The notes under the pieces are model-generated. The model worked only from the letters and a program-made list of their open reading frames with translations, searched no databases and had not been told where the DNA came from. Position numbers and translations under genes: made by a program. This document shows, piece by piece, positions 1,077 to 56,261 of a stretch of 64,000 nt of DNA (positions within the stretch are counted from its first letter, which is position 1; each line of letters starts with the position of its first letter). The stretch comes from a virus (Duplodnaviria; Heunggongvirae; Uroviricota; Caudoviricetes): IMG/VR virus record IMGVR_UViG_2721755711_000002, one strand, 5' to 3'.

Positions 1077-1081
1077 GGTCA

Positions 1082-7465: not shown

Positions 7466-7477
7466 TGGGAGAAATGT

Positions 7478-9468: not shown

Positions 9469-9487
9469 TCTGGAGAAGTGGTCATTC

Positions 9488-9514
9488 AGGCGGTTCAGGC
9501 CGCCTTTTCTTTTT
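9488..9514 (+). terminator. Intrinsic terminator-like hairpin between tube and chaperone genes
   Basis: aggcgg-ttcagg-ccgcct hairpin followed by TTTTCTTTTT. Confidence 0.5.
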
Positions 9515-9528
9515 AAGAGGAAATCAAT

Positions 9529-33217: not shown

Positions 33218-34031
33218 GTTTGCCCTTCTCCGTTAAAAATTCGTCGGGTAGTTTCTGAGGGGCGTAGATCGGCAGTGCATCGCAACTGCAATAAACCTCC
33301 TCCCCAGCAGCAGTGATTTCGTCATAAAAACCATATACGGGCTTAATCAGCCCCTGCTCCAGCGCCCACGAATTGCGGAGGAGATAAATTTTCTCGTCGC
33401 GCTCTTTGTGGTCCTGTCGGTATTTGTAGCCCGGACGCCGCCAGTTAGAATGCCAGCGCAGAGCAATCGCTCCACTCTGAACAGCCAGCAGATACTTAAC
33501 GTTGCTTGCCAGCTTATGCCCCTGGTCAATTGCCACCCGGCGACTGATAAAATCCATATCCTTCACGGACTTCTGAAAACCGGACTTCACTTCCCGGCGA
33601 TCAATTTCGCTCACCCCGTCAGGCGGAATGGACGTAACCCACCCCTGAAAACGCTGTATGGTTTTCTCGATGGCCTGTTCGCGGTTGAGTTTTATCAGGT
33701 TGGCACTGGCGAAAATTCGCCTGTCGAGTTCCTTGCGAAACTCAGGTTTCAGTTTTTCAACAGTGACTTTTTTAGGGCCGTCAGGAGGCTGCTCCCGTAA
33801 TGCCCCGCCGTCGATGACAAGACGGCTGTAGATGGCGGTGAGATGTTTTCTGGCTACGGTATCATCAGGGGTTTCTCGCTGAGCGGCTACACGGAGTTTC
33901 CGGCACCATTCGAGCAATGATTTTTCGCTATCCCACCCGTGATTTACGTAGTAGTTAACGGCATCCGTCAGAACCTCATATAGCGTCCTGATCCGTTTCT
34001 TCTTCCTCACCGCCCGGCTGGAAATTGCCAT
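33198..34031 (-). CDS. Head morphogenesis protein (Mu F / SPP1 gp7 family)
   Basis: Position after portal; start taken at M47 of ORF. Confidence 0.55.
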   Translation of the reverse strand: MAISSRAVRKKKRIRTLYEVLTDAVNYYVNHGWDSEKSLLEWCRKLRVAAQRETPDDTVARKHLTAIYSRLVIDGGALREQPPDGPKKVTVEKLKPEFRKELDRRIFASANLIKLNREQAIEKTIQRFQGWVTSIPPDGVSEIDRREVKSGFQKSVKDMDFISRRVAIDQGHKLASNVKYLLAVQSGAIALRWHSNWRRPGYKYRQDHKERDEKIYLLRNSWALEQGLIKPVYGFYDEITAAGEEVYCSCDALPIYAPQKLPDEFLTEKGKREFNRA

Positions 34032-35415
34032 CAGGCGTCTCCTGCTTCGGTGGTTCATAATTCGCCAGCGCGTCCACATCAATGATGAGTGGAGCTTCGC
34101 CATAGGTTTGCGTGGCATTAACAAGGCTTGCCAGCCATTCAGTGACGGCGGCACGGTTTTCAGGATCAACCTGTGGCGACACGGCAGAGAAAAGTGCTAT
34201 CGCCTGTTGAATCACTTTACTGTCGCTTTCCCGGCGTTTGTCCGGCGACTCCTCCACCAGCTCCTGCCATGTCGCGGTAAATTCACGTCGCCACTGGTAA
34301 AACGTGGTTTTATAGTCATCAGTTATGATGTCCGGGTAATCATTTTTCAGCGACTGATAAAATTCCTCGTTCCAGGCGATGTACTGCACCAGGCGTTCGA
34401 AATAATCCATCACAGGTTCAATCTGCTGGCGTACACCATCGATATACTGGCTGATAGCTTTCGAATCCTCAGTTCCTTCACCGAAACCATTCGAGAAAGC
34501 CTCCTCCTTGATGAGAATCGCGGGAACATCGCTACCTGATGCAATATCGGAAATAATGTTGTCGCGGGCGGCATTTAGCGCGCCATCGATGTTTTGTAAA
34601 TTCAGCGAGGTAACGTCCTCATCCTTCCCGATACTAAGCACACCTTTATTTTTTGCCTCTTTGACATTTTCCCTTTTTCGTCCCGTGGCGGCAGCCATGA
34701 TCCCGTCAAGTTTCGAACCGTTTTGCACAACTTTAGCTACCAGTACGCCCGCTTTCTGACTGACGAGATCATTCGCCTCCATCGTGTTGATATAGGATTT
34801 CAGGGAATAAAGAACGCGCTGAAACACGCTTCGCCCGGTGAATCCGAACGATGAACTCTGAAACTCCAGATAAATCGGTGTGCCGTTGAAAATTTTCAAC
34901 GTGCGTGACGGATGCCAGTCTTTTCCGCCAATCTTCAGCTTTTTATTGGCTTCCTGGAAAAACGGACTGTTTGGGTTCTGGTCAGTCACCATCGAACCGG
35001 AAGCGTTCAACGGATCCCACGCGTTGATATACACATCCTCTTCTGTCAGTCCGAACGTCGGAAGCGGTTCACGACATGAAACACTGTCGGTGCCCACGCC
35101 GATCGCTGCGGCACCGTAGCAACGAGACAGAAAAAACAGATTTTTAATCTTCTCGTTGACTTTCATACGTTCCCATACCTCCTGAAAACGCCGCACAACC
35201 CTCTCGTCAGGATCTGTCTCCACGTTATACTGTCGCGGCTTACACATCGCCATCAGTATGGGTTTTTCGACAAGTTTTCCGCCCAGAGGATGGAATTGCC
35301 ACAGCAGCTTACACAGTTCATAGCCGATATCGGTTCCCGGCTGAATTTCTTCAGCCTCAAGAATACGCATCAGTGCCGAACCGAGGCCGCCAGTAATCTC
35401 GATCTCTGCCATCAA
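33976..35415 (-). CDS. Portal protein
   Basis: 479 aa directly downstream of terminase large subunit; acidic C-terminus. Confidence 0.65.
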   Translation of the reverse strand: MMAEIEITGGLGSALMRILEAEEIQPGTDIGYELCKLLWQFHPLGGKLVEKPILMAMCKPRQYNVETDPDERVVRRFQEVWERMKVNEKIKNLFFLSRCYGAAAIGVGTDSVSCREPLPTFGLTEEDVYINAWDPLNASGSMVTDQNPNSPFFQEANKKLKIGGKDWHPSRTLKIFNGTPIYLEFQSSSFGFTGRSVFQRVLYSLKSYINTMEANDLVSQKAGVLVAKVVQNGSKLDGIMAAATGRKRENVKEAKNKGVLSIGKDEDVTSLNLQNIDGALNAARDNIISDIASGSDVPAILIKEEAFSNGFGEGTEDSKAISQYIDGVRQQIEPVMDYFERLVQYIAWNEEFYQSLKNDYPDIITDDYKTTFYQWRREFTATWQELVEESPDKRRESDSKVIQQAIALFSAVSPQVDPENRAAVTEWLASLVNATQTYGEAPLIIDVDALANYEPPKQETPDGNFQPGGEEEETDQDAI

Positions 35416-35430: not shown

Positions 35431-36759
35431 TTACAACGCCGCGTAATTACCGTGCGCAATGATCAATCCATAGGTGTAACAATCGAAAAGGTCATCAGCA
35501 CGTTTATGCGCGTCTTTGTCTGCCAGGTGGAACCCGGCGATTTGTTTGATGAGGTGGTTTGCGGTTGTGCGCTTGAATGAAACGGTTTTGTCGTAAGCCT
35601 CGCGGGTAATTTTGCATTTACCCTGGTAATGGTGGCTGGAAGCCAGCACCGCGCGCTCGTCTTTCCCTTTGCTGGTTAACGCTGATTTAATCGGCGTCAT
35701 ATCCCAGCCTTCGGTTTCCGCTTTCTGGTTGAGGATTGCGCCCATTGCGGCATCCTCCATGAATACCCCCTGACTCCCCAGGCGCGGGCGGCAGAGTTGC
35801 GCCAGCCGCTCGAGGTTGTCATAAACACCGGGGATATACTCAGGAAGCAGCGACGCTTTAATTTGCGTCACATCCCAGTCGATAACGGTCAGTTTCGGCT
35901 CATCGGAATACGTGGACTCATACGCGAAGTAAACCACGCCTGTCCCGTCGTTCTCCGTCCCGCCTTTCAGCGCCGTATCCATTACCGCAAAAATCATGTC
36001 GCAGTGTCGCGGCATCTCAACCGGCTGGCCATCCACCAGCAGCTTATCGACATCGAGTAACGCGTCTTTGGACCAGTCTACGAACTCTGCAAGATATTCC
36101 TGCTGCCAGACGCGCGGATCGGATTTCTTCTCCGTTTCCTCCAGTTCTTCTTTCGGAATATACGGATTCGATGAAGTTGGCGCATGGTGCATAACAAATC
36201 CCAGGGATTCATCGTGGCATATCGCGTAGAAAAAATTGCTCTCGTCGATACCGTTTGGTGTGGAAAATACCCACGCACAGCCGCGGTAATCGACAAGCGT
36301 CGGGCGTATCGCTCGGGGCCAGATTTCCTCGAGCATTTCCGGCGATTTAGTGAATGCGGCCTCATCAATCAGCACAGCGTGATATTTACGCCCACGCCCG
36401 GCCAGTTTGTTATTGTCCGTTACCCAAAAGTCGATGCGCCCCCCATTACGGAGAATGATGCGCTTTTCATTTTTTGACTGACTGAGGATCAGCGGTTGCA
36501 GAACGGCGCTAATTTCATCCCAGATTTCCTGGTACTGGCGGTATTGCGCGGTAAAAATCCCCACCCTACCCGCGATAAGTTGCCCAGTGGTAGGAACGGC
36601 AAATTTCCGCGTAGCGAAACTGGTAGCGATGTTCACCAGCATCACCGTTTTACCCCAGCGACGACCACAGCATACCGCGTGGAAGCGTTCCTCTATTGCC
36701 GCCGTCCATGCAGCTATTTGCCCCTCATGAGGTTTTGGGAGGTAGATTTCAATCGACAT
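35431..36759 (-). CDS. Terminase large subunit
   Basis: Walker A-like CGRRWGKT near N-terminus; 442 aa. Confidence 0.85.
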   Translation of the reverse strand: MSIEIYLPKPHEGQIAAWTAAIEERFHAVCCGRRWGKTVMLVNIATSFATRKFAVPTTGQLIAGRVGIFTAQYRQYQEIWDEISAVLQPLILSQSKNEKRIILRNGGRIDFWVTDNNKLAGRGRKYHAVLIDEAAFTKSPEMLEEIWPRAIRPTLVDYRGCAWVFSTPNGIDESNFFYAICHDESLGFVMHHAPTSSNPYIPKEELEETEKKSDPRVWQQEYLAEFVDWSKDALLDVDKLLVDGQPVEMPRHCDMIFAVMDTALKGGTENDGTGVVYFAYESTYSDEPKLTVIDWDVTQIKASLLPEYIPGVYDNLERLAQLCRPRLGSQGVFMEDAAMGAILNQKAETEGWDMTPIKSALTSKGKDERAVLASSHHYQGKCKITREAYDKTVSFKRTTANHLIKQIAGFHLADKDAHKRADDLFDCYTYGLIIAHGNYAAL

Positions 36760-37840
36760 TATCCACTCCCGGCATCGGCAGAGAGTTGTGGATAATTATT
36801 TCGTTATTCTCACCACCCACGCCTTTTTTGAGGTTTTCAATCTCAGTGCGCAGCTTTTCGTTGCGAAGCCTCAGTCCTTCAAGCTCCAGATCATTGCGAC
36901 TGTCAGTTGCACCACCAGCAGAACTTCCTTTCGTCGCCATTATCAGCTTGATAAGTTCGCGCCGGGCGGCAGCCTTATCCTCCAGCAGGATCTCAACACC
37001 AAATTTCCCGAGCTTTGCCCCTGCATATAATTGTCGCGCATCCCCATCAAGCAGAGTGGTATCAGCCATATAAAGCTGTCCCGTTCCCTCACCGCAGCAC
37101 TTCGGACAATCCGGATTGGGTATGGCGTTATCAACAAAGCCGAGGCCTCCATATTCCGGCTCGGGTTTGCCATCTCTGGAGGCCTGTGCCGCTGCCTTAT
37201 CGAATTCTGCAATATCACGCCACTGGTAGAGATGATTCTCGCCCCAGCAATAACGGCAGTTAACACGGCGAAATTGTGCCAACTGATTGGGGTCGGCCTG
37301 GACAATAGCCATCAACTGACTCACCAGTAAATCCAGGTCTGCGGTATAGCGTTTCTGATACTGATTGCGGAAGTAGCTGATAGCACGATAAACCCTGGCA
37401 TTTCTAAGCATACGGCTGGCGTTGCTGTTAGCTGTCGCACCTTGCCCCTCATAACCAGCCAGTCGGTATGCCTCTGTCGGCTTTTTCCCCTGAGCAACAA
37501 GCATCGCAAACTTAGCCTGCTGGTCAGAAATGCCGAATTCATCGGGGCAGAACGAAAATTCCTCCGCGTCGCCCTCATTCAGGCACGCATCGGATACTGG
37601 CTTTTTTTTCTGAGATTTTCCGTTCCGCTTTTGCGCAGTCTGCGCAGATTTTTTCTGCGCACTTTGTTGCGCAGTTTTGCGCATTTCTGTCTGCGCATTT
37701 TTCGGAGGTTTTTTGATGTAACGACGGGCTGTTGCGTAATTCAGTCCCCTTGCCTCACACCATGCCACCGGAGATACACCGGAGCGGGTGTATTCAGCAA
37801 TATATTCCTGCTGCAACGCCCCCCAGTCCGGTCTGCTCAT
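36749..37840 (-). CDS. Putative terminase small subunit
   Basis: N-terminal HTH-like region, Cys-rich segment; overlaps terL start. Confidence 0.5.
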   Translation of the reverse strand: MSRPDWGALQQEYIAEYTRSGVSPVAWCEARGLNYATARRYIKKPPKNAQTEMRKTAQQSAQKKSAQTAQKRNGKSQKKKPVSDACLNEGDAEEFSFCPDEFGISDQQAKFAMLVAQGKKPTEAYRLAGYEGQGATANSNASRMLRNARVYRAISYFRNQYQKRYTADLDLLVSQLMAIVQADPNQLAQFRRVNCRYCWGENHLYQWRDIAEFDKAAAQASRDGKPEPEYGGLGFVDNAIPNPDCPKCCGEGTGQLYMADTTLLDGDARQLYAGAKLGKFGVEILLEDKAAARRELIKLIMATKGSSAGGATDSRNDLELEGLRLRNEKLRTEIENLKKGVGGENNEIIIHNSLPMPGVDNVD

Positions 37841-37843: not shown

Positions 37844-38095
37844 TTAGTCCTGATTTTTATCCACCCTGAGTAGTTCACGCAGGGCAAAGGCATCCCCTTT
37901 TCTGGCAAGCTTAAACAATGCCGCCCGTAGTTCGGCTTCACCTTTCGCTCTGCCCTTACGGATGGATGCGTAAAAATCTGTCATTGCTTCCCGATTTTCT
38001 TTCAGTCGGTTCAGATCAACATCCAGAACGTCAGCGATTTGTTGTGCAGTCATCCGGCACGCTGCCAGAGACTCGACTTTCGAATACGGAATCAT
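37844..38095 (-). CDS. Small DNA-binding-like protein
   Basis: 83 aa, HTH-like MTAQQIADVLDVD. Confidence 0.3.
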   Translation of the reverse strand: MIPYSKVESLAACRMTAQQIADVLDVDLNRLKENREAMTDFYASIRKGRAKGEAELRAALFKLARKGDAFALRELLRVDKNQD

Positions 38096-38963
38096 TTGTC
38101 ACCCCCATTGATATGCAGGGTGTCTTCTTCCTGTATTTTTCGTGAAGGATTTTTACTGCAGCGTTGTTCCAGGTGACCTGATGGTGAATGCGTTTATGGC
38201 TGGCCCCCATCAGTGAGATTTTTACGCACGAGGGCGCATACATGACGGAGTAAAAACTTTTAACGTAGGTTCCGGAATCCAGATACAGCTCGGTCATTCC
38301 GCCGCTGTTTTTCTGCGTCTGTTTCTGCCCTAACTGGACAGCACCGATCGTCATAAACAATTCACCACAGCGACCGAGATTCGTGTACGTATTCACATCC
38401 TCGTTAATGCGCCCCATGAATGAGAACGGTCGATCAACCGAACAGATAAAGCTGTTCATTGCCTTGCGTTTCACCCACGAAGCATGGCCGCCATTGTCAC
38501 CAAGAAAATCCCCGCCCTGCGACATAGCGATGGAAAGCGCGGGTATTGATTCGTAATACGCCAGCATTTCAGAAAGGATCGCATCCAGTTTCCTTATCGG
38601 GAAATAGGCCTGGTCATAGTTGCGATCCACCCGAAACTGGAACTCGTGATAATCATCATCGAGCTGAATGAAGTATTTACACCCGACCATTTTTGCCAGG
38701 TCGAAACAGGCATTACGGGCGTAAAAAATTGAGCGGCGGTCACCGAAATTATCGGCTTCGTCAAAACGACTGGCGATATCGGCTTTGGAAAACACCAGCA
38801 CCTGTTCACCAAATTCAGCTATGTACTGATGCCGTGTCTTATCTTCATCATCAACAACGATAAAAATTTTCCCGGTATAGCCAGCACGACGCAACGTCCG
38901 GTAAGTCAGAACTTTGTCCGGTCGCCCGTGAGTCAGAATAAAGGCGCAAAAATCATCACGCAT
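38031..38963 (-). CDS. Uncharacterised protein with DxD-like acidic motifs (FIVVDDEDK, QLDDDY); possible nucleotide-sugar transferase-like fold
   Basis: Motifs read from translation; coupled to ParB-like gene. Confidence 0.4.
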   Translation of the reverse strand: MRDDFCAFILTHGRPDKVLTYRTLRRAGYTGKIFIVVDDEDKTRHQYIAEFGEQVLVFSKADIASRFDEADNFGDRRSIFYARNACFDLAKMVGCKYFIQLDDDYHEFQFRVDRNYDQAYFPIRKLDAILSEMLAYYESIPALSIAMSQGGDFLGDNGGHASWVKRKAMNSFICSVDRPFSFMGRINEDVNTYTNLGRCGELFMTIGAVQLGQKQTQKNSGGMTELYLDSGTYVKSFYSVMYAPSCVKISLMGASHKRIHHQVTWNNAAVKILHEKYRKKTPCISMGVTNDSVFESRVSGSVPDDCTTNR

Positions 38964-39744
38964 ATTCCTCCTCCCCGCCATGCATGATCTCCACCATGCG
39001 CTGCGTCATCCGGACAAAACCATTTTCGATGGCTTGCTGATAATCAATGATCACCAGTGCCGACTCCTCAAAAAGGCCCTGAATTTCAGCGGGGGCGTGA
39101 GCGTAATAGTCTGCAATTCTGCTGAAATTAAACACCGTGTGGCGTTCTGCCGCGCACAGGAGGAATTTTTCGATATCAGGCTCAAGGGACGCCGTACGTA
39201 TCCGGCTGACCAGCTCCTGAGTTTTCGTATCGTCGTACAGTTCACTGATATCCGGTTCATCCCCTGACGGCTCATAAACAGGCGTATCAATTTTCGTCGT
39301 GTACGGCTCATCCTCATTCGCTGTACCTGGCAAAACATCCGTTAATAGTTCGTCAATTTCTGTCGGGCAGAATCCTGTCAGGGAGATATCAAAATCAGCA
39401 TTGATTAGGTCCGACAGCTCCATCCGTAACAGATCTTCATCCCAGCCAGCACTCATCGGCAGGCGATTATCAGCCAGGCGGTACGCCTTTTTCTGATCAT
39501 CCGTCAGACCAGACAGAACAATGACCGGAACCGAATCCATTTTGAGCGCCTCAGCCGCCATAACACGCCCGTGCCCCGCAATAATTTCACCCTTTTCATC
39601 AATCAGCACCGGATTTGTCCAGCCGAATTGCTTAATGCTTTCAACCAGCTGTGTCACCTGTTCAGGAGAGTGTGTCCTTGCATTGTGCACATACGGAGAC
39701 AACTCTTGTAACAGTCGATAGACAATATTCAATTTTTCGCTCAT
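38956..39744 (-). CDS. ParB-like nuclease domain protein
   Basis: N-terminal ...ARTHSPEQV...GHGRVMAA... ParB/Srx-like motifs; start at M55 of ORF with RBS gagg. Confidence 0.65.
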   Translation of the reverse strand: MSEKLNIVYRLLQELSPYVHNARTHSPEQVTQLVESIKQFGWTNPVLIDEKGEIIAGHGRVMAAEALKMDSVPVIVLSGLTDDQKKAYRLADNRLPMSAGWDEDLLRMELSDLINADFDISLTGFCPTEIDELLTDVLPGTANEDEPYTTKIDTPVYEPSGDEPDISELYDDTKTQELVSRIRTASLEPDIEKFLLCAAERHTVFNFSRIADYYAHAPAEIQGLFEESALVIIDYQQAIENGFVRMTQRMVEIMHGGEEEYA

Positions 39745-40142
39745 ACAACCTCGCTTTATGAATAAAAAACTAACAGCAGCCAGTGGAGAGCATTTATCAT
39801 TAACATTTACAGATAAGATGACGTACATCATTGAAACGCCATTCAGCCATATACCGGCAGCATTCGTAGTTGCACTCCGTAACTCTGCGACTAAGGTTAA
39901 AAACATGGCCCTCTTTCGCCACCGGCAAATCTTCCATGGATTTCCCCTGCCGGTTTTTTATTTTCGTCGATGCATAACATTGCATTTACATCAATACCGT
40001 CTATTGTCATAAGTATGTTGTACCGATGCTCGGGTGATATTGGCGGTCTTCGCCGGCCGGTTCTGTGTAGCTGTTCCCTGTGACCGGTTTTTTATTTCTC
40101 ACATTATCGCAGCCCCTCGCTGAAGGGCTGCTGTAATGTCTG

Positions 40143-41393: not shown

Positions 41394-41771
41394 CTATCGC
41401 TTCAATTGAAAATGTGGGCCGTCTTTAAGCGTCCGCCAGTCACCGCCCCATTCGATGGCAGTTCCAAGCTCTGCGGCAGCTTGCTTAAATGCCTGTGCGA
41501 TTTTCTCGTACAGAGGCCAGTCCCATGACACCTGGCTGCCAACATAAGCCACAACATCCACAGCATCACCGGTCAGGTGGCGGCTGTTCATGGTCTGGCT
41601 CTTACCTTCTGCAACCAGCTGTTTCTGGCGATACTTACTGCGCAGACCTTCCGTAATACCGAAATCAACCTCCGTCAGCTCCAGCGCACGGCGAACAACA
41701 GCAACCAGCTGTGGTTTGACGCCCTCCAGATTTTTTTCACTGCGACGACTGAATCTGAATTTACCCGACAT
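41394..41771 (-). CDS. Endolysin, peptidase M15-like
   Basis: SRHLTGDAVD and WGGDW...DGPHF motifs; follows holin genes. Confidence 0.7.
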   Translation of the reverse strand: MSGKFRFSRRSEKNLEGVKPQLVAVVRRALELTEVDFGITEGLRSKYRQKQLVAEGKSQTMNSRHLTGDAVDVVAYVGSQVSWDWPLYEKIAQAFKQAAAELGTAIEWGGDWRTLKDGPHFQLKR

Positions 41772-41773
41772 GC

Positions 41774-42049
41774 TCACCTCCGGAATGAAAGGATTTTTGA
41801 AACGTTCCCGCGTGCACGTATCACCAGCACGCAGAACAGCAGATTAAGCCCCACCGCCAGCCAGTTCGCCGCTAACGGGCGACCGCACAGATAGCTGAGT
41901 GGTGCAAAGGCATAAAGCAGCATCAGTAGCCAGGCCAGCCATGACATCAGCGCTTTATGTCTGGAATCACGGCGACGATAAAAAAAGAGCGTCAGCACGA
42001 TAACCGTGCTTAACACCACATTCAGTAATCCGGGAAGGTTACTTAACAT
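41774..42049 (-). CDS. Holin/antiholin-like membrane protein
   Basis: 91 aa with 2-3 hydrophobic helices. Confidence 0.5.
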   Translation of the reverse strand: MLSNLPGLLNVVLSTVIVLTLFFYRRRDSRHKALMSWLAWLLMLLYAFAPLSYLCGRPLAANWLAVGLNLLFCVLVIRARGNVSKILSFRR

Positions 42050-42428
42050 TACCGCCTCCTCCCCGCAGACGGGAGAACAGCCCGAATACCAGCGATGCGA
42101 TATCCTGCTGGTGGATGAATGAGAGAATCTTCACCGACACCACCGATACCAGTACCGCGCAAAGCGCGTCGAGAGATGTGCTGTGGAGATTCAGTTTTTC
42201 AACCAGGTAAGACGCCATCACATCCGCCCCCAGCACGCCAACAATGAACGACACCAGAAAATGCGCTGCCACACGCCAGACAGAAATCTTCTGTGGTATC
42301 GTGGCCACAAACAGCGCCCCTGCGAATGCACCAAACACAATCCCGAAATCCGTTCCGGTAAACAGCCCGAATACCGTCGCCCCACCGAGCGCCGCAGCCG
42401 TGCCGGAACCGGATAAGGGTTCAGACAT
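42039..42428 (-). CDS. Holin-like membrane protein
   Basis: 129 aa, Gly/Ala-rich hydrophobic helices; RBS aggag. Confidence 0.55.
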   Translation of the reverse strand: MSEPLSGSGTAAALGGATVFGLFTGTDFGIVFGAFAGALFVATIPQKISVWRVAAHFLVSFIVGVLGADVMASYLVEKLNLHSTSLDALCAVLVSVVSVKILSFIHQQDIASLVFGLFSRLRGGGGNVK

Positions 42429-42521
42429 ACTTTTTCTCCTGTAAATAAAAAAGGGCCGCTGTCGGCCCGTAAAAAAACCCCCCGTCAAAGGCACCCACAG
42501 ATGCCTTTTGTGTGGTGCTAT

Positions 42522-42728
42522 TTATTGCTTTAGTGTCATTTGCGCTTCAATAAAGCGACGGCGGTTCTCCGCAATAACAAACGCCATTGCCAGCCCTTTG
42601 ACGGCTGCATCATGACCATACCGGGTCTGAGCAGCAGCAAACCTTCGTTCTATCGCTGCTACAGAATCAATGGCAGAATCTGCTATGCAATTTTCAAATT
42701 CAGTTATCACTTCTGTCGAAGAGGTCAT
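42522..42728 (-). CDS. Small hypothetical protein (uncertain)
   Basis: 68 aa; its ATG abuts the divergent plus-strand ATG within CATATG. Confidence 0.25.
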   Translation of the reverse strand: MTSSTEVITEFENCIADSAIDSVAAIERRFAAAQTRYGHDAAVKGLAMAFVIAENRRRFIEAQMTLKQ

Positions 42729-43409
42729 ATGTACTCCCTGAAAATTAGATGCCCGTACTGCCTTCATCAGGTTCATATTTCTCTGAATGAGGTCACCCAG
42801 TACCACAGCAGGCGCCCGGCTACAGAAAACAAGCTTTACGTGCAACAGCCGCGCACCTCTGAAATAACATCAGCAAAAGCATACTCAACAGACTTTTGCA
42901 CAGAATGTAACAACCCATTAATGATCGCATTCGAATGTTCAGTCAGTGAACTGGTGGACATGAAAAAAGCCATCAACAACAAAGCCTGGGTGCTGAATGC
43001 TCCACTTGAGGGAAGCATCAAAATCTATCCTGAACTCAGGCTGCCCGATGACTCCCCCCACTATCCCGAAAAAATTCGCGCAGTCTTCACCGAGTTGCAA
43101 GAGGATGTTCGGTCCGGCAGAACCGCCCCGCGTATCATTGTTGGCTGCCGTAGCGTCCTCGAGGTTGCCCTCCGTGCCCTGGGGTACGAAAAAGGCAATC
43201 TGCTGTCACGCATTGAACTGGCACGGCAGGACGGCATACTGACGGAATCAATGAGAAACTGGGCTCACCGAATCCGTATGGAAGGCAATGAGGCTGTGCA
43301 CGAGCTCGAGGCCAGTGGTGAACAGGCAAAAGAGTTTGTGGCGTTTCTCCGCCTGTTCCTTGAAGTGGCATTTGTGCTACCGGAACGCATTAAGGAACAG
43401 CAGCAATAA
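42729..43409 (+). CDS. Zinc-ribbon protein with C-terminal DUF4145-like domain (cargo gene, opposite strand)
   Basis: CPYC...CTEC pairs at N-terminus; C-terminal ...RNWAHRIRMEGNEAVHELE... resembles DUF4145; RBS gaagagg. Confidence 0.55.
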   Translation: MYSLKIRCPYCLHQVHISLNEVTQYHSRRPATENKLYVQQPRTSEITSAKAYSTDFCTECNNPLMIAFECSVSELVDMKKAINNKAWVLNAPLEGSIKIYPELRLPDDSPHYPEKIRAVFTELQEDVRSGRTAPRIIVGCRSVLEVALRALGYEKGNLLSRIELARQDGILTESMRNWAHRIRMEGNEAVHELEASGEQAKEFVAFLRLFLEVAFVLPERIKEQQQ

Positions 43410-43443
43410 AAATGCAGCGGGCTTTCAATGCCCGCTCAAATAA

Positions 43444-43602
43444 TCAGCTGTTGTTTTTGTTCCGGAATAAAGGCCGGAGCACGACCAGCGCCATCGCCAC
43501 CAGTACACCATCAGCCAGTACCGACATCAGCCGTCCGGTGAAATCCACCGCCACTACCAGAAACAGCAGGACGGCAGCCAGCGCAAGGCGTGCACTTTTC
43601 AC
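43444..43602 (-). CDS. Small two-helix membrane peptide (52 aa), coupled to TerB-like gene
   Basis: GTG start overlaps TerB-like stop (GTGA); translation KSARLALAAVLLFLVVAVDFTGRLMSVLADGVLVAMALVVLRPLFRNKNNS; below ORF-track size cutoff. Confidence 0.3.
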   Translation of the reverse strand: MKSARLALAAVLLFLVVAVDFTGRLMSVLADGVLVAMALVVLRPLFRNKNNS

Positions 43603-44024
43603 AGGTACTGCTCCAGCGGTAACTGCAGCGCCTGAGCAATTTTCTTGAGCTGTGCTTCTTCATCCGGACCAATGCCATCCTGGTCTGCGATATCCAGACA
43701 CAGGCACAGCACATTAACGGCATCATCAGTACCGGCGACATCAGCCAGTTGACGGAGGGCTTCAGCATTGGCAGAACGCGGCGATGCTTCATAACGGGCG
43801 CGGATATTCGCGCTCATCTGGGCAATCTCACCGGAGAACGGCGCAAAGGCAGGAAGTGCTGCAATGGTTTTCTCCAGTACCGCAATTTCTTTCGCGTCAC
43901 AGGTGTCGTCAGCGTATGCAATGGAATACGCGCCCCAGACGGTCGCCTCCACCGCGTCGCGGTTCTCCATTTTCTTCACTTCAGTAATAGCCTTACGGGT
44001 TTTCTTTTTGAAAATACCAAACAT
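43599..44024 (-). CDS. TerB-like domain protein
   Basis: ~141 aa; acidic helical protein (...DTCDAKEIAVLEKTIAAL...DIADQDGIGPDEEAQLKKIA) resembling TerB family. Confidence 0.5.
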   Translation of the reverse strand: MFGIFKKKTRKAITEVKKMENRDAVEATVWGAYSIAYADDTCDAKEIAVLEKTIAALPAFAPFSGEIAQMSANIRARYEASPRSANAEALRQLADVAGTDDAVNVLCLCLDIADQDGIGPDEEAQLKKIAQALQLPLEQYL

Positions 44025-44221
44025 CGTGACTTTTCCTTTTAGTGGGTGAGCCTCGCCCCGGGATGAGCAGCCCACAGAGAAAGTCACACTGACCATCCCG
44101 TAAGCTCCCCCCTGAAAGGCTCTGTGGTTTTTTGATGTGCGCCGGGCGTGGCGCAGATATGAAAAAGGCCACGCACGTGCGCAGCCTGATAATTTTCTGA
44201 ATCAGCGGAGTGTCAGCTGGT

Positions 44222-44749
44222 TTACCCTTTCACTTCTGAAAGGGATTTTTTGCCAAACGTCACTTCATTCATTGACATAAGTATGCTGTCTTTAATGTAT
44301 TCGCACACTTCATTAATTTTTGCGTTGGTATCCACATGCGAAAATGTCCTGGCCTGATAACCATCAACCGAAATCGTCATGTTGTCGCCATCAAGTAACA
44401 GAATACTCACTGTAATATTCACACTTACAGACTGGCGGGGATCATCATCAACAACCGTATATAAATTAAAAGTAACCCCATCCTGAAAATCTACCTGCAA
44501 ATCCTCCGGTTTCTCACAACAACTATCATGAGAAAGATAAACATAGGGATGGGAGTTACCGTCAATATCCAGCCATCGTGGTTTCGGCAATGCCAGTGAG
44601 TCTTCATAGGTCTTGACCAGCCTTTTTGCCATATCCCGCAGTCGCTGGATGTACTCCTGTCTGGCCTCCTGAATTTCAGCCTGCTTTGCCCGAATGTCTG
44701 CATATGTGATCACAGTCTCAATTCTCCTGTATACAGAAAAATAAAACAT
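44222..44749 (-). CDS. Hypothetical protein (AT-rich cargo gene)
   Basis: Start uncertain (M103 of ORF 44222..45055). Confidence 0.3.
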   Translation of the reverse strand: MFYFSVYRRIETVITYADIRAKQAEIQEARQEYIQRLRDMAKRLVKTYEDSLALPKPRWLDIDGNSHPYVYLSHDSCCEKPEDLQVDFQDGVTFNLYTVVDDDPRQSVSVNITVSILLLDGDNMTISVDGYQARTFSHVDTNAKINEVCEYIKDSILMSMNEVTFGKKSLSEVKG

Positions 44750-45112
44750 AATAATAGCCAACCGGGAAAAGATGAAAAATGCCATAACAGAACAGGCATT
44801 GCGCACGGATAAAAAAATGCCCGTCATGAGACGGGCTAAAACATTCATCATGCAAGAGTTAAGCAGGATTACTTGTATCGAATTATCGGTATCAGAATGA
44901 GTCGTCAACCTGCAACCGCAATTCTGGCGAATCGTAGGCCCCGGCACAGGCGACGACTCATTCTGATAACGCATACCATTAACAATGTAAAAAACACAGC
45001 ACTGAAACTGTAACCGATCAGGCATTACAGAATGAAGAAAATAAAATGTCCGCAACCAGATTCTTCACGAAAATGCGCCAGTGCTGATAAAACTATGACT
45101 CATCAGTTTTAC

Positions 45113-45189
45113 TGGAGAGCGGGTGACGGGAATCGAACCCGCATCATCAGCCTGGAAAGCTGAGGTAATAGCCATTATACGATACCCGC
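45113..45189 (-). tRNA. tRNA-Gly(UCC)-like gene, possibly degenerate
   Basis: GCGGGTATCGTATAATGGCTATTACCTCAGCTTTCCAGGCTGATGATGCGGGTTCGATTCCCGTCACCCGC...; resembles glyT as recalled but with an A7-C66 mismatch and TCTCCA instead of TCCA at the 3' end. Confidence 0.5.
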
Positions 45190-45407: not shown

Positions 45408-46454
45408 TTAAAAATCTTTCGTTATTTCTCTGACCGTCTGATTAAAACGTTCCTCTTCCAGTTCCACGCCAATCGCCCTGCGTCCCAGCGACAGTGCCGC
45501 TTTTATTGTCGACCCCGACCCCATAAAAAAATCTGCGACCAAATCGCCAGGACGGCTGCTGGCAGTAATTATCTGACGCAACATATCCGCCGGTTTTTCA
45601 CAGGGATGTTTGCCCGGATAATACTGCACGGGCTTGTGCGTCCAGACATCCGTATAAGGAACGACAGCCGATACGGAAAAATAACGCCGCAGTGATTTGT
45701 ATTCCTCCAGCAGGCTGGCATATTGCCGGTTCAGTTCGCTGTATGTGCTGACCAGCTGGTGGTGTGGCTGCTCCAGTTCACCGCGCTGGTGTTTTTCTGC
45801 CACCACACGTGCAAACAGCGCCTGCAGTTTACTGTAATCGGCCTCATTCGGTAACTGCCACTGACTGGTACCAAACCAGTGCGAAGCCATGTTTTTCTTT
45901 CCGGTGGCTTCCGCTATCTGTTTTGACGTTATTCCCAGTGATTCACGCGCATCACGAAAGTAAGAAATCAGCGGGGCCATGACGTGCTGTTTTAGCTCAC
46001 GCCCCTTTGCCGCATAGCCGTCATTTTTGGGCTGGTATGGCCCCTGATAATGTTCAGCAAACAGAATGCGTTCTGTTGCCGGAAAATACGCCCGCAGGCT
46101 TTCCTTGTTGCACCCGTTCCAGCGCCCGAACGGCTTCGCCCAGATAATGTGGTTCAGCACATTAAAGCGTTCACGCATCATGATTTCGATATCAGATGCC
46201 AGGCGATGACCACAGAACAGGTAGAGACTTCCGGCAGGTTTCAGTACCCGCCAGAACTGCGCCAGACACTGAGCCAGCCATTTCAGGTAATCATCGTCGC
46301 CCTTCCACTGGTTATCCCAGCCCTCGGGCTTCACTTTAAAGTATGGCGGGTCTGTGACTATCAAATCGACAGAGTTTTCCGGTAAGGTCCGGATAAATTC
46401 CAGGCAATCAGCGTTGATTAACTCACAACTGGATATTTTTACAGTATTAGCCAT
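45408..46454 (-). CDS. Orphan DNA methyltransferase (amino-MTase, DPPY type)
   Basis: IVTDPPYF catalytic motif near N-terminus and FMGSGST SAM-binding motif near C-terminus; no adjacent restriction gene. Confidence 0.8.
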   Translation of the reverse strand: MANTVKISSCELINADCLEFIRTLPENSVDLIVTDPPYFKVKPEGWDNQWKGDDDYLKWLAQCLAQFWRVLKPAGSLYLFCGHRLASDIEIMMRERFNVLNHIIWAKPFGRWNGCNKESLRAYFPATERILFAEHYQGPYQPKNDGYAAKGRELKQHVMAPLISYFRDARESLGITSKQIAEATGKKNMASHWFGTSQWQLPNEADYSKLQALFARVVAEKHQRGELEQPHHQLVSTYSELNRQYASLLEEYKSLRRYFSVSAVVPYTDVWTHKPVQYYPGKHPCEKPADMLRQIITASSRPGDLVADFFMGSGSTIKAALSLGRRAIGVELEEERFNQTVREITKDF

Positions 46455-47014: not shown

Positions 47015-47710
47015 TTAATCTACTTTTGCAATACTTTGCTTTGAAAATGCCGCCTTTTGTTCCGAACGCGTTCTCATTACCAACAATAAAGCCTCACTAT
47101 CCAGCTGGTGGAAAATGTGTTTCATTGCAACCCAGTGACCAGTAAATGTTTTGGACCAGTTTTTAGTTGTCACTCCCGCCAGTAATGCCAGCTCCTGGTA
47201 TTCATAACCTTCCCCGCCAAAAAGTTCTGCTTTTACTGCCTGCGCCGCCAGCCAGATTAATTTTTTCAGGCGTTCCCGTGTTTTCTCTGCAATTTTCCTG
47301 TTGCCAGAATGAGCCTTAAACTCTTCCCATGCCCAGCGGGTTATGGTGACCTGATACTCCCAGCAAATATTTCCGCTGTAACACCACAACAACCAGGTTT
47401 TATGAGGTTCTTCAAGAGACAGAACAGCCCGTCGCCATGAGGATGTCGAAAACTCAACCTGACTTACCAGAGGAATTGACGTCCCCTTCGCCAGCGATTG
47501 TTTCCCCGGGATTGGTGGATTATCCCGCGTGATCATTTTTCCAGTCACTTCATCGCGGTACCGGATTTTTTTACGCCTGTAACGCCCTGTATCGAACATG
47601 GCATTCTCCTGCCAGGCTTCAAGCTGACCTTTTGTTGCCCCACTCAAATCGGCGGTGGCGATAATGAGCTGCTCACGAACAAACTGTAAATACTGGTTAT
47701 TCATGCGCAC
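47015..47710 (-). CDS. Putative late-gene antiterminator (Q-like)
   Basis: 231 aa directly downstream of rusA and upstream of terminator and lysis region, as in lambdoid phages. Confidence 0.5.
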   Translation of the reverse strand: MRMNNQYLQFVREQLIIATADLSGATKGQLEAWQENAMFDTGRYRRKKIRYRDEVTGKMITRDNPPIPGKQSLAKGTSIPLVSQVEFSTSSWRRAVLSLEEPHKTWLLWCYSGNICWEYQVTITRWAWEEFKAHSGNRKIAEKTRERLKKLIWLAAQAVKAELFGGEGYEYQELALLAGVTTKNWSKTFTGHWVAMKHIFHQLDSEALLLVMRTRSEQKAAFSKQSIAKVD

Positions 47711-48066
47711 TCCAGCCCTGTGATTTTTATCCCCAACCGACCACCAGGAACGACCTGACCGCGCACAATATTGATTTCATCAAACTGCTCGTCGTCTATG
47801 AGAAGTCCGGCATGCGTCAGCGCATCCAGTGGTGCTTTCAGGATATTGTCCAGGTCACGACGGCGCTTATCCGGTGGCTCTGCAATAATCTTTATCGCCA
47901 GCCTTCCGGACAGGTTTAATTTCAGCCGCTGCTGGCGAACAATTAGCGCCACATCACGGCGATAACGCTTTCCGGCCTCCGAGATGAAATACGTATTGCC
48001 ATGACGTCGCCAGTAGGTATTCACCGTCGGCGGGTAAGGCAAAACAAATTCTATGCGTTCAGTCAT
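47701..48066 (-). CDS. rusA: Holliday junction resolvase RusA
   Basis: 121 aa; RusA family pattern (...RRDLDNILKAPLDAL...). Confidence 0.8.
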   Translation of the reverse strand: MTERIEFVLPYPPTVNTYWRRHGNTYFISEAGKRYRRDVALIVRQQRLKLNLSGRLAIKIIAEPPDKRRRDLDNILKAPLDALTHAGLLIDDEQFDEINIVRGQVVPGGRLGIKITGLECA

Positions 48067-50797: not shown

Positions 50798-50953
50798 TTA
50801 CTCCTCAGATTCGTAAGCTGTGAAGACAGCGACCTCCGTCTGGCCGGTTCGGATTCGTACCTCGCAGAGGTCTTTCCTCGTTACCAGTGCCGTCACTATG
50901 ACGGTTAAACAGATGACGATCAGGGCGATTAACATCGCCTTTTGCTGCTTCAT
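50798..50953 (-). CDS. hok: Hok/Gef family type I toxin
   Basis: MKQQKAMLIALIVICLTVIVTALVTRKDLCEVRIRTGQTEVAVFTAYESEE; in-frame leader upstream (mok-like) and GC-rich stem-loops downstream. Confidence 0.8.
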   Translation of the reverse strand: MKQQKAMLIALIVICLTVIVTALVTRKDLCEVRIRTGQTEVAVFTAYESEE

Positions 50954-51243
50954 AGCCTGCTTCTCCTTGCCTTTCGGCACGTAAGAGGCTAACCTACATG
51001 TGTTCAGCATGGATTGAGCCTCAGATTAATGTTAAGCGTCTTGCAGGACGCGTAATGTTAACTGGGGCTTTTCTCTATCTGCCGTTGGTGTTCATGCCCG
51101 AGGCAGATAGCCTCAAGCACCCGCAGCAATTCTACTTAACTCTCCTTTTCCCGCAAACCGTTTTTATCCCCATCGGCAAATCGAATACACCACCAGCGCC
51201 ACCGCCATCGCAATTCCTACCGTTGTGAATGCTTCGGGCCAGG

Positions 51244-55433: not shown

Positions 55434-55453
55434 CCCACCCCCATAACACGTTA

Positions 55454-56255: not shown

Positions 56256-56261
56256 GTGGTG

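What the first reader, a model, noticed from the sequence alone, without database searches (positions are those of the whole stretch)
38031..39744. ParB-like nuclease coupled to an uncharacterised DxD-motif protein just upstream of the terminase genes
The ParB-like gene overlaps a 310-aa protein with acidic DxD-like motifs (FIVVDDEDK, QLDDDY) reminiscent of nucleotide-sugar transferases. ParB-like nucleases beside terminases are often paired with DNA-modifying enzymes, so this pair could be a DNA modification or anti-restriction module acting at packaging. The 390-bp non-coding stretch 39745-40142 upstream may hold the packaging site.
Basis: inference. Interest (0 to 1): 0.6.

Follow-up and report, generated by a model that had tools for sequence, protein, structure and literature searches.

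The report
Prophage sugar-transferase with ParB-like partner
Just before its DNA-packaging genes, this E. coli prophage carries a tightly coupled gene pair, a sugar-transferring enzyme from a DNA-glycosylating family and a ParB-like helper, but no enzyme to make the modified base such transferases normally need, so what receives the sugar is an open and testable question.

Summary
Two minus-strand genes overlap by 8 nt. One encodes a 262-aa ParB/Srx-fold protein (38956-39744). The other encodes a 310-aa protein (38031-38963) that belongs to the TAGT family, "TET-associated glycosyltransferase" (Pfam PF20691, 6e-35).

The pair is a widespread, near-obligate two-gene cassette:
- It is in 1250 of 5426 complete E. 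coli genomes.
- Across about 80 other species, 70 of 71 TAGT loci have the partner directly upstream.
- In the reverse test, 80 of 80 partner loci have TAGT directly downstream.
- The cassette usually sits just upstream of terminase genes, whichever terminase family is present.

The partner is very acidic. It has a ParB nucleotide-binding domain, a disordered linker with invariant Y..P.Y residues, and a C-terminal domain with no Pfam or PDB match.

No TET/JBP dioxygenase, hydroxymethylase or C5-methyltransferase was found in this prophage. None recurs near relatives.

My best reading (about 0.5) is a late-expressed DNA glycosylation module in which the ParB-like protein tethers or activates the transferase on phage DNA. 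The acceptor is unknown. The guess that the packaging site lies in the upstream gap is not supported.

The parts
38956..39744 (-). Gene for the 262-aa ParB/Srx-fold partner protein (K-12 Rac ynaK family)
   Evidence: ORF. Pfam ParB_N 1.8e-6. PHROG 620 3e-86. PGAP names it 'ParB/Srx family N-terminal domain-containing protein'. pI about 4.4, net charge about -26.
39340..39744 (-). Partner residues 1-135: ParB nucleotide-binding domain plus helix-helix segment (N21-x-R23, S36, G57-H-G-R60)
   Evidence: AF2 pLDDT 80-93. Foldseek best hits are M. xanthus ParB-CDP, Noc, B. subtilis ParB-CDP and KorB. Closest phage relatives are the N-termini of ParB-methyltransferase fusions. N21, S36 and G57 are invariant.
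39244..39339 (-). Partner residues 136-167: disordered acidic linker with the motif Y148-x-x-K-I-x-x-P155-x-Y157-x-P-x-G-x-x-P164
   Evidence: pLDDT below 50 for residues 137-167. Y148, P155 and Y157 are invariant in 56 sequences from many phyla.
38959..39243 (-). Partner residues 168-262: conserved helical C-terminal domain (FL..AA.RH.VF....IA.YYAHA....Q.L.E.SALVIID...AIE.G) with no described family
   Evidence: No Pfam or PDB sequence match. More conserved than the ParB domain (44% against 32% mean pairwise identity). Found with TAGT in 70/71 and 80/80 loci.
38956..38963 (-). 8-nt stop/start overlap (ATGCGTGA) between the partner and TAGT genes, consistent with translational coupling
   Evidence: Sequence. 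A 4-20 nt overlap is seen in 64 of 70 distant loci, most often 11 nt.
38031..38963 (-). Gene for the 310-aa GT-A glycosyltransferase of the TAGT family (PGAP name: GREB1-related protein)
   Evidence: PF20691 6e-35 at 121.5 bits. PHROG 842 1e-102. AF2 pLDDT 91.2, pTM 0.86. GT-A hits in the PDB. TAGT proteins are the best hits in BFVD, TM up to 0.87. The last roughly 22-30 residues are a non-conserved tail.
38652..38660 (-). Codons for D102-D103-D104, the DxD metal / nucleotide-sugar motif (QLDDDY)
   Evidence: Invariant or at least 90% conserved. The motif follows beta-strand 97-102 in the model.
38841..38852 (-). Codons for D38-D39-E40-D41, the first acidic cluster (VVDDED) after beta-strand 32-38
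   Evidence: D38 and D41 are invariant in 14 sequences and D41 is at least 90% conserved in 100.
37844..38053 (-). Small ORF of 69 aa (83 aa from the ATG at 38095) resembling part of a small terminase subunit. It overlaps the TAGT tail.
   Evidence: PHROG 309 1.7e-22, profile positions 145-218 of 319. PGAP annotates a CDS here. Sequence.
36749..37840 (-). Terminase small subunit gene
   Evidence: Pfam Terminase_2 7.6e-9 and PHROG 51 2e-71.
35431..36759 (-). Terminase large subunit gene
   Evidence: Pfam Terminase_6N and PHROG 2 7e-35.
39745..40142 (-). 398-nt untranslated stretch upstream of the pair. Not shown to belong to the module.
   Evidence: Contains a hairpin at 40101-40139 and a 14-nt direct repeat AAATAAAAAACCGG at 39950-39963 and 40084-40097. 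No promoter-like site on the coding strand. Similarity to most related prophages ends at about 39770-39785.

Best explanation
The pair is a self-contained, translationally coupled two-gene cassette in the late (Q-dependent, minus-strand) transcription unit of a lambdoid E. coli prophage.

Gene 2 encodes a basic, catalytically intact GT-A glycosyltransferase of the TAGT family. Gene 1 encodes its dedicated acidic partner, which has three parts: a ParB-type nucleotide-binding domain, a disordered linker with an invariant Y..P.Y motif, and a previously undescribed C-terminal domain.

My proposed mechanism is inferred, not shown. The linker and C-terminal domain dock the transferase. The ParB domain, like those fused to phage DNA methyltransferases and like the ParB activators of phage thymine dioxygenases, acts as a nucleotide-gated clamp or activator that holds the enzyme on duplex DNA. 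Newly replicated phage DNA would then receive a sugar from a nucleotide-sugar donor late in infection, before or during packaging. This would protect it from host nucleases or mark it.

Unlike described TAGT systems, the module works without a TET/JBP dioxygenase or hydroxymethylase. The acceptor is therefore not the usual 5-hydroxymethyl-pyrimidine and is unknown.

What is shown: gene structure, family and fold, conserved catalytic motifs, near-obligate pairing, position next to terminase genes, and absence of a hydroxylase. What is inferred: physical complex, late expression, DNA as target, and biological role. I put the module identity at about 0.9 and DNA as the acceptor at about 0.5.
For: Family and fold:
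- PF20691 6e-35 and PHROG 842 1e-102.
- AF2 pLDDT 91.2.
- GT-A hits in the PDB.
- TAGT proteins, including a T-even-type beta-glucosyl-HMC alpha-glucosyltransferase, in BFVD.
- DxD and other acidic or basic residues are conserved across 100 relatives.

Pairing:
- The partner lies directly upstream in 70/71 loci from about 80 species of many phyla.
- TAGT lies directly downstream in 80/80 loci retrieved with the partner's C-terminal domain.
- The stop/start overlap is conserved.
- The pair is also found in Lactobacillus phage phi jlb1 and haloarchaeal virus HHTV-2.

DNA context:
- Terminase families account for most of the 59 first large downstream ORFs.
- Where the partner lacks the ParB domain, the pair follows DNA polymerase A, a beta-clamp or a primase-helicase.

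The ParB domain:
- It is closest to the N-termini of phage ParB-methyltransferase fusions and to CTP-binding ParB, Noc and KorB structures.
- Its layout, nucleotide-binding domain / helix-helix / disordered linker / C-terminal domain with no HTH, matches the ParB activators of phage T-dioxygenases, which are needed on dsDNA (PMC13229309).

Substrate logic:
- TAGT is basic (median pI 8.7) and the partner is acidic (pI 4.4).
- TAGT is about 50% identical across bacteria and archaeal viruses. This argues for an acceptor that does not vary between hosts, such as DNA.
Against: - No source of a hydroxymethylated base exists in the prophage. Pfam and PHROG scans of its larger ORFs found no Tet_JBP, ThyS-type hydroxymethylase or C5-methyltransferase.
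- None recurs near relatives.
- No glycosyltransferase is known to glycosylate an unmodified DNA base.
- The partner is strongly acidic and has no recognisable DNA-binding domain.
- The eukaryotic relative GREB1 glycosylates a protein, not DNA (PMC7968844).
- The authors of the phage glycosyltransferase survey regard glycosyltransferases without a neighbouring 5mYOX or ThyS as less obviously DNA-directed.
- No experimental data exist for any member of this subfamily.
Confidence: 0.5

Rival explanations
1. Protein glycosylation. TAGT glycosylates its own partner, for example on the invariant tyrosines of the disordered linker as glycogenin does to itself. Alternatively it glycosylates another protein, and the ParB domain only regulates or localises the reaction.
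For: Y148 and Y157 are invariant in a disordered, otherwise variable linker across 56 diverse sequences. Partner and enzyme are near-obligately paired and co-conserved. A co-conserved partner would also explain why the enzyme varies so little between hosts. GREB1, a TAGT relative, O-GlcNAcylates a protein. Glycogenin is among the structural hits.
Against: Invariant Y and P residues are equally typical of a docking peptide. The ParB domain type is otherwise attached to DNA-modifying enzymes. All neighbours are DNA replication or packaging genes. Fusions of TAGT to sugar-tailoring enzymes fit either model.
Confidence: 0.17
2. Canonical TAGT chemistry. The enzyme adds sugar to 5hmC, 5hmU or an already glucosylated base that is made by genes elsewhere. 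The source could be an unrecognised hydroxylase, a co-resident element, or a superinfecting T-even phage whose DNA is thereby altered (exclusion).
For: All biochemically characterised relatives act on hydroxymethyl-pyrimidines or on glucosyl-hmC. PHROG labels the family as the T-even second glucosyltransferase. Phage 5mYOX enzymes are often missed by the Pfam Tet_JBP model.
Against: No candidate of suitable size and family was found in the prophage. No third gene is conserved with the pair in 80 loci; the best non-terminase cluster is in only 14 loci. Tet_JBP was not among the 25 listed families, all those matched by two or more of 150 upstream proteins; 52 single-member families were not displayed. 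E. coli DNA has no hmC or hmU. The genes lie in the late operon, which should be silent in a lysogen, so exclusion of incoming phage is unlikely.
Confidence: 0.1
3. Small-molecule target. TAGT glycosylates a nucleotide, nucleoside or immune signalling molecule as a counter-defence, and the ParB domain acts as the nucleotide-binding sensor.
For: A nucleoside-binding GT-A enzyme (AvpGT with Ara-A) is among the structural hits. ParB-fold domains bind diverse NTPs. A universal metabolite would also explain the enzyme's conservation.
Against: This does not explain the near-constant position at the replication/packaging boundary. It does not explain the sharing of the ParB domain type with DNA methyltransferases. 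Neither protein matches the TAGT or any non-methylase model in the defence-system library; the partner's ParB domain matches only the ParB part of a type II methyltransferase model.
Confidence: 0.07
4. Two unrelated functions that happen to be adjacent: a ParB-like nuclease or partition protein, and a glycosyltransferase for cell-surface conversion. Alternatively, a decaying remnant.
For: Older annotations call the first gene a partition protein or nuclease. K-12 Rac retains a ynaK remnant.
Against: 70/71 and 80/80 co-occurrence with conserved overlap. No ParA, HTH or parS features were found. TAGT has no signal peptide or membrane segment in the model. Purifying selection is strong: 60-65% identity to homologues from distant bacteria such as Sphingomicrobium.
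Confidence: 0.03

Closest known systems
TAGT family (Pfam PF20691; TET/JBP-associated glycosyltransferases of Iyer et al. 2013), including the T2/T6 beta-glucosyl-HMC alpha-glucosyltransferase and metavirome GT-A DNA glycosyltransferases (Pyle et al. 2024)
   Same: Clear sequence membership (121.5 bits against a cut-off of 27.5). GT-A fold with DxD. Closest predicted viral structures are TAGT proteins. Relatives are fused to sugar-tailoring enzymes, as in DNA glycan pathways.
   Different: No TET/JBP, C5-methyltransferase or hydroxymethylase in the phage or recurrently near relatives. Forms a tight subfamily (at least 39% identity among the best 150 representatives) that is near-obligately paired with a dedicated ParB-like partner. 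The acceptor is unknown.
ParB-dependent phage thymine dioxygenases (5mYOX176/ParB176; O'Toole et al. 2026, PMC13229309)
   Same: The partner has the same layout: ParB nucleotide-binding domain, short helix-helix, about 30-50 aa of disordered linker, C-terminal domain, no DNA-binding HTH. The nucleotide-contact residues have similar spacing: N21/R23/S36/R60 here against N14/R16/S29/R56. The closest solved structures are the same, M. xanthus and C. crescentus ParB.
   Different: The partnered enzyme is a glycosyltransferase, not a dioxygenase. Homology of the C-terminal domains could not be tested because no sequences were available. Activation is inferred here and was measured there.
Phage ParB-domain DNA methyltransferase fusions (PHROG 498; PADLOC MTase_II PDLC03229; surveyed in PMC12704722)
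   Same: The ParB domain is closely related (5.6e-49 and 5.7e-37; 40-58% identity by tblastn). Several of these genes lie within a few hundred bases of the start of the phage record.
   Different: There the enzyme is covalently fused and methylates canonical bases. Here the enzyme is a separate polypeptide, recruited (by inference) through a dedicated C-terminal domain, and transfers a sugar.
GREB1 (animal O-GlcNAc transferase with a TAGT-like domain; PMC7968844)
   Same: Homologous GT domain. NCBI names the E. coli protein 'GREB1-related'.
   Different: GREB1 is a 1949-aa protein with zinc-binding and inactive helicase domains, and it acts on a protein. None of those domains is present here.
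Chromosome and plasmid partition ParB (ParABS), Noc, KorB
   Same: Same N-terminal CTPase fold with the GxxR motif.
   Different: No HTH/parS-binding domain, no ParA partner, a different C-terminal domain, and a strongly acidic protein.

Membership tests
TAGT (PF20691) | Sequence match above the curated Pfam threshold | tested here: met
   121.5 bits against a cut-off of 27.5, covering residues 14-228 and profile positions 4-205 of 205.
TAGT (PF20691) | GT-A (Fringe-like) fold with conserved DxD | tested here: met
   AF2 pLDDT 91.2. PDB hits are all GT-A. BFVD TAGT hits reach TM 0.87. D102-D104 are conserved.
TAGT (PF20691) | Genomic association with a TET/JBP (5mYOX) dioxygenase or another source of 5-hydroxymethyl-pyrimidine | tested here: not met
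   None in the prophage. None in five Pfam-annotated contexts. Tet_JBP was not among the 25 listed families, all those matched by two or more of 150 upstream proteins from about 60 loci; single-member families were mostly not displayed.
TAGT (PF20691) | Transfers sugar to a hydroxymethylated DNA base or to its sugar | not testable with these tools
   Needs biochemistry or nucleoside mass spectrometry.
ParB/Srx superfamily (PF02195) | N-terminal domain match and fold with the GxxR box II | tested here: met
   28.4 bits against a cut-off of 26.3. PHROG 620 3e-86. G57-H-G-R60. Foldseek hits to ParB-CDP, Noc and KorB.
Partition ParB (ParABS) | Central HTH/parS-binding domain, ParA-binding motif and neighbouring parA | tested here: not met
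   TIGR00180 scores 35.4 bits against a cut-off of 58.45. After residue 135 the model is a disordered linker followed by an unrelated helical domain. No parA is annotated in the near-identical region.
ParB/Srx superfamily | Nucleotide (CTP/ATP) binding or hydrolysis; nuclease activity | not testable with these tools
   Contact residues are conserved in most members but lost in some (L088, L090).
5mYOX-associated ParB activators (PMC13229309) | Layout of nucleotide-binding domain, helix-helix, disordered linker and C-terminal domain, with no DNA-binding domain | tested here: met
   AF2 secondary structure and pLDDT profile compared with the description.
5mYOX-associated ParB activators (PMC13229309) | Encoded next to, and required by, a 5-methylpyrimidine dioxygenase | tested here: not met
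   The neighbour is TAGT in 70/71 and 80/80 loci. No dioxygenase was found.
T-even beta-glucosyl-HMC alpha-glucosyltransferase (PHROG 842 label) | Acts in a phage that makes hmC (dCMP hydroxymethylase) and alpha-glucosyl-hmC | tested here: not met
   No such genes in this lambdoid prophage. T-even phages were not retrieved by tblastn at 1e-5. The structural match to the PKO111 enzyme is only TM 0.59.
GREB1 | Multidomain protein with N-terminal zinc-binding and inactive helicase domains, and protein O-GlcNAc transferase activity | tested here: not met
   The protein is a single 310-aa GT domain. Activity is not testable.

The most novel reading that the evidence does not exclude
The cassette installs a sugar directly on phage DNA without any prior hydroxymethylation. 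The acceptor would be a canonical base or another position not yet known to be glycosylated. A GT-A enzyme would be held on the duplex by a ParB-type clamp through a dedicated adaptor domain. This would be a new chemical class of DNA modification. It would be encoded by about a quarter of complete E. coli genomes and by phages of many bacterial phyla and of haloarchaea. It would have stayed invisible so far because the genes are silent in lysogens.
Probability: 0.28. Interest if true: 0.9.

Novelty: new variant of a known kind. Interest (0 to 1): 0.6.

Why it matters
Phage DNA glycosylation is understood only as a second step after a hydroxymethyl group has been put on cytosine or thymine. This TAGT subfamily has no such first step. 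Yet it is strongly conserved, always paired with its own ParB-like adaptor, and present in 1250 of 5426 complete E. coli genomes and in phages from Lactobacillus to haloarchaea.

Either a new acceptor chemistry on DNA exists, or a family named for DNA modification does something else in most of its members. Both outcomes would change how these genes are annotated.

The question is directly testable in E. coli with inducible prophages. It would also extend the recent finding that ParB-fold proteins act as activators of DNA-modifying enzymes from dioxygenases to glycosyltransferases.

Tried and rejected
1. I first assumed the window equals NZ_AP042701.1 because the 2.4-kb query matched it 100%. 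Alignment showed it matches only from about 25.3 to 42.5 kb. I therefore annotated the early region from the window's own ORFs.
2. I searched for a TET/JBP dioxygenase, hydroxymethylase or C5-methyltransferase. I looked in the prophage, in Pfam-annotated neighbourhoods of relatives, by clustering all ORFs of 80 loci, and by a Pfam scan of 150 upstream proteins. None was found. That scan lists only the 25 most frequent families, so single occurrences could be hidden.
3. Rosetta-stone ParB-TAGT fusions: none. The long relatives are TAGT fused to a SAM methyltransferase, a sulfotransferase, a second TAGT or a P-loop kinase-like domain.
4. Identity of the partner's C-terminal domain: there are no significant Pfam or PDB sequence matches, and the AF2 monomer model is low-confidence there, so I attempted no fold assignment.
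5. Packaging site in 39745-40142: rejected as unsupported. Similarity to related prophages ends at about 39770-39785. Only a short repeat and a hairpin are present. No Rfam family matches there.
6. A PDB sequence search with the TAGT profile gave no hits. The AlphaFold-database fold library was unavailable. Iyer et al. 2013 was not held, and the supplement with 5mYOX-ParB sequences was not held. A direct comparison of C-terminal domains was therefore impossible.
7. Literature searches for ynaK, GREB1 with prophage, DNA glycosyltransferase with ParB, and glucosyl-HMC with ParB and terminase found no study of this cassette.
8. Complex prediction was not possible with the tools.
Full report
**Observation.** Both genes exist as described, on the minus strand.
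- The ParB-like ORF runs to 39906, but its conserved start is the ATG at 39744, giving 262 aa.
- The second gene starts at the ATG at 38963, giving 310 aa. The first ATG of its ORF, at 38981, would give 316 aa.
- NCBI's pipeline uses these same starts for a 100%-identical copy in E. coli OkiPb01716.
- The genes overlap by 8 nt (ATGCGTGA), and a GGAGGAGG ribosome-binding site lies inside the end of the first gene.
- FIVVDDEDK is at residues 34-42 and QLDDDY at residues 100-105.
- The untranslated gap 39745-40142 is 398 nt.

**Context.** The window is E. coli DNA.
- Bases 1 to about 14,000 belong to a P2-like prophage on the plus strand.
- The rest is a lambdoid prophage read on the minus strand. 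Its genes, from the far end, are:
  - integrase (62870 to the window end) and exonuclease (60123-62579);
  - cI-like repressor (56256-56654, plus strand) and O-like replication protein (54468-55457);
  - DUF968 (48067-49125), RusA (47701-48066) and Q antiterminator (47015-47710);
  - an N6/N4 DNA methyltransferase (45408-46454), accessory genes and the lysis genes (41394-42494);
  - four small ORFs, then the pair;
  - a small terS-like ORF, terS (36749-37840), terL (35431-36759), portal (33976-35415) and the tail genes.
- I first assumed identity to NZ_AP042701.1 throughout. That was wrong: only about 25.3-42.5 kb match.
- The pair therefore sits at the end of the lysis region and the head of the packaging genes, within the Q-dependent late transcription unit. 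Late expression is inferred from gene order only.

**The 310-aa protein.**
- It is a clear member of Pfam PF20691, TAGT or "TET-associated glycosyltransferase" (6e-35, 121.5 bits against a cut-off of 27.5), and of PHROG 842 (1e-102). NCBI names it "GREB1-related protein".
- An AlphaFold2 model built on 100 relatives is confident (pLDDT 91.2, pTM 0.86).
- Its solved structural neighbours are all GT-A glycosyltransferases, including ColGalT1, K4CP, SpsA, GnT-I, glycogenin and TarS. The E-values are about 1e-5 and the TM-scores 0.3-0.47, so it is a divergent GT-A.
- Among predicted viral structures the best matches are TAGT proteins (TM up to 0.87). They include a T-even-type beta-glucosyl-HMC alpha-glucosyltransferase (TM 0.59).
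- D41, D102-D104, Y105, N187, D189, R258, H260 and several basic residues are invariant or at least 90% conserved across relatives of 39-83% identity.
- The DDD follows a beta-strand, where a GT-A DxD is expected.
- From memory of SpsA (D39, D98/D99, D191), D38/D41, D102-104 and D189 sit at equivalent places. That comparison is recalled, not tested here.
- The last 22-30 residues are an unconserved tail that overlaps the next ORF.
- The subfamily is large: 1330 representatives at 50% clustering with E up to 1e-3, and 497 with E up to 1e-30.
- Some relatives are fused to a class-I SAM methyltransferase, a carbohydrate-type sulfotransferase, a second TAGT, or a P-loop kinase-like domain identified by eye from its GxxxxGKS motif. 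Such fusions suggest that the product is a glycan that can be further decorated.

**The ParB-like protein.** It has three parts.
- *Residues 1-135* form a ParB/Srx nucleotide-binding domain plus a helix-helix segment.
  - Model confidence is pLDDT 80-93.
  - The best solved matches are M. xanthus ParB-CDP, Noc, B. subtilis ParB-CDP, KorB and PadC.
  - N21, S36 and G57 are invariant and R60 is nearly so. Two distant members have lost the arginine.
  - The closest phage relatives of this domain are the N-termini of DNA methyltransferases: PHROG 498 5.6e-49 and PADLOC MTase_II model 5.7e-37. By tblastn it matches 401 phage records, and 17 of the 40 sampled rows are annotated as methylases.
- *Residues 137-167* are predicted to be disordered. 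They nevertheless carry Y148, P155 and Y157, which are invariant in 56 sequences from many phyla.
- *Residues 168-262* form a helical C-terminal domain.
  - It has no significant Pfam or PDB sequence match.
  - It is more conserved than the ParB domain: 44% against 32% mean pairwise identity. TAGT itself is 50%.
- The protein is very acidic (pI about 4.4, net charge about -26), whereas TAGT is basic (median pI 8.7).
- There is no HTH domain. The protein also fails the partition-ParB model: TIGR00180 scores 35 bits against a cut-off of 58.

**The pair is one module.**
- The 2.4-kb region is found in 1250 of 5426 complete E. coli genomes. K-12 Rac ynaK belongs to this ParB family.
- A profile scan of one genome per species returned 80 loci. 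They span Enterobacterales, Bacteroidota, Firmicutes, Verrucomicrobiota, Acidobacteriota, a Fonsibacter MAG, Saccharibacteria and an archaeon.
- Of the 71 loci with at least 700 nt of upstream sequence, 70 have the partner's C-terminal domain directly upstream. In 62 the ParB domain is in the same ORF. In 64 of the 70 the stop overlaps the TAGT start by 4-20 nt, most often 11 nt.
- In the reverse test, 80 viral contigs retrieved with the C-terminal domain all have TAGT downstream, adjacent or overlapping in 74 and within about 1 kb in the other 6, and 78 have the ParB domain in the same ORF.
- The same arrangement occurs in Lactobacillus phage phi jlb1 and haloarchaeal virus HHTV-2. It also holds for TAGT-methyltransferase and TAGT-sulfotransferase fusions.
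- Downstream, terminase families account for most of the 59 first large ORFs: Terminase_6N 26, Terminase_3 16, GpA 7, Terminase_2 3 and TerL 1. These counts may overlap.
- Where the partner lacks a ParB domain, the pair directly follows DNA polymerase A, a beta-clamp or a primase-helicase.
- Clustering all ORFs of the 80 loci found no third gene conserved with the pair. The best non-terminase cluster is in 14 loci.

**No hydroxylase.**
- TAGT enzymes characterised so far add sugar to 5hmC, 5hmU or glucosyl-hmC.
- This prophage has no Tet_JBP, thymidylate-synthase-type hydroxymethylase or C5-methyltransferase. E. coli DNA offers no such base.
- Five Pfam-annotated neighbourhoods of relatives have none.
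- Among 150 upstream proteins of 195-460 aa from about 60 loci, the families seen at least twice include IstB, N6_N4 methylase, PAPS reductase, DnaA and RecT. C5 methylase appears in 2. Tet_JBP is not among them.
- Two caveats apply. That output lists only the top 25 of 77 families. Phage 5mYOX enzymes can also escape the Pfam model.

**Mechanism.** The best-supported reading has four parts.
- It is a late-expressed DNA glycosylation module.
- The partner's linker and C-terminal domain bind TAGT. This is inferred from near-obligate co-occurrence, translational coupling and complementary charge.
- The ParB domain serves as a nucleotide-gated clamp or activator. It does so where it is fused to phage methyltransferases (PMC12704722). 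It also does so where a ParB with the same layout is required for a phage thymine dioxygenase to act on dsDNA (PMC13229309).
- TAGT varies little from E. coli prophages to archaeal viruses, while terminases, capsids and hosts differ. The acceptor should therefore be something invariant. The candidates are DNA, the co-conserved partner, or a universal metabolite.

The neighbours, replication genes upstream and packaging genes downstream, favour DNA.

The main objection is chemical. No glycosyltransferase is known to use an unmodified DNA base, and the partner has no DNA-binding domain.

My probabilities are:
- DNA target: about 0.5
- Glycosylation of the partner or another protein: 0.17
- Canonical hydroxymethyl-base acceptor from an unseen source: 0.10
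- Small-molecule acceptor: 0.07
- Unrelated or decayed genes: 0.03

**The upstream gap.** Most related prophages and phages that share ParB-TAGT-terS lose similarity at about 39770-39785. The gap is therefore not inherited with the packaging genes. It holds a hairpin (40101-40139), a 14-nt direct repeat and no promoter-like site on the coding strand. It has no Rfam match. Nothing supports a packaging site there.

**Comparison and novelty.** The protein families are known and annotated. ParB genes near phage DNA-modification genes have been noted before (Iyer 2013, as cited). [quoted passage not shown]

The analysis here adds three points:
- This TAGT subfamily is a self-sufficient two-gene cassette.
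- Its partner carries a dedicated, undescribed adaptor domain.
- The cassette is independent of any hydroxylase.

I found no study of it. I rate it a new variant of a known kind.

**Limits.** There are no experimental data. I made no complex prediction. The model of the C-terminal domain is poor. I could not compare it with 5mYOX-associated ParB sequences. The absence of a dioxygenase rests on Pfam and PHROG models.

Noticed in passing
window 1-14000: The first ~14 kb are the end of a different, P2-like prophage on the plus strand (tail sheath, late control and capsid genes in related E. coli records). It abuts the lambdoid prophage, so the window holds two prophages side by side. GC skew changes sign at about 14 kb.
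   Followed up: partly
window 18589-20237: A small island sits inside the tail/baseplate genes and replaces a different insert in the closest relative. That relative carries a 'type I restriction endonuclease' CDS there. In the window the island holds three things: a 248-aa protein with a signal peptide (18589-19335, minus strand); an Rfam sRNA-Xcc1 match (19548-19632, plus strand, 72 bits); and a 189-aa ORF that looks like an anti-repressor by eye (19668-20237, plus strand).
   Followed up: partly
window 45408-46454: An N6/N4 DNA methyltransferase (Pfam 7.5e-45) lies downstream of the Q antiterminator and separate from the ParB-TAGT pair. The prophage therefore carries two candidate DNA-modifying functions.
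   Followed up: partly
window 42540-45189: Accessory genes lie between the methyltransferase and the lysis genes: a plus-strand DUF4145 protein (42540-43409), a TerB-like protein (43599-44096), an unknown ORF (44222-45055; the PHROG 5091 match covers only residues 115-268) and tRNA-Gly(tcc) at 45117-45189.
   Followed up: partly
window 50948-51122: A strong Rfam match to the sok antitoxin RNA (113.5 bits) indicates a hok/sok-type toxin-antitoxin locus in the prophage early region.
   Followed up: no
window 39950-39963 and 40084-40097: There is an exact 14-nt direct repeat, AAATAAAAAACCGG, 134 nt apart in the gap upstream of the ParB-like gene. An 18-nt imperfect hairpin at 40101-40139 lies just after the stop of the preceding ORF. 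The function of both is unknown.
   Followed up: partly
window 37844-38095: A 69-83 aa ORF between TAGT and terS matches only the middle of a small-terminase profile (PHROG 309, positions 145-218). It may be a separate DNA-binding piece of the small terminase. It overlaps the unconserved C-terminal tail of TAGT.
   Followed up: partly
P0248, P0251, P0281, P0286, P0267, P0268, P0270, P0307, P0319; loci L088, L090, L119: Relatives of the transferase are fused to a SAM methyltransferase, a carbohydrate-type sulfotransferase, a second TAGT or a P-loop kinase-like N-terminus. One partner protein (L119) carries a SAM methyltransferase in front of its ParB domain. These fusions hint at decorated glycans.
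   Followed up: partly
loci L094-L173, upstream regions: PAPS-reductase-like genes occur upstream of the pair in 4 of about 60 loci, and DNA polymerase III beta-clamp genes occur next to it in several. I did not examine whether these are functionally linked.
   Followed up: no
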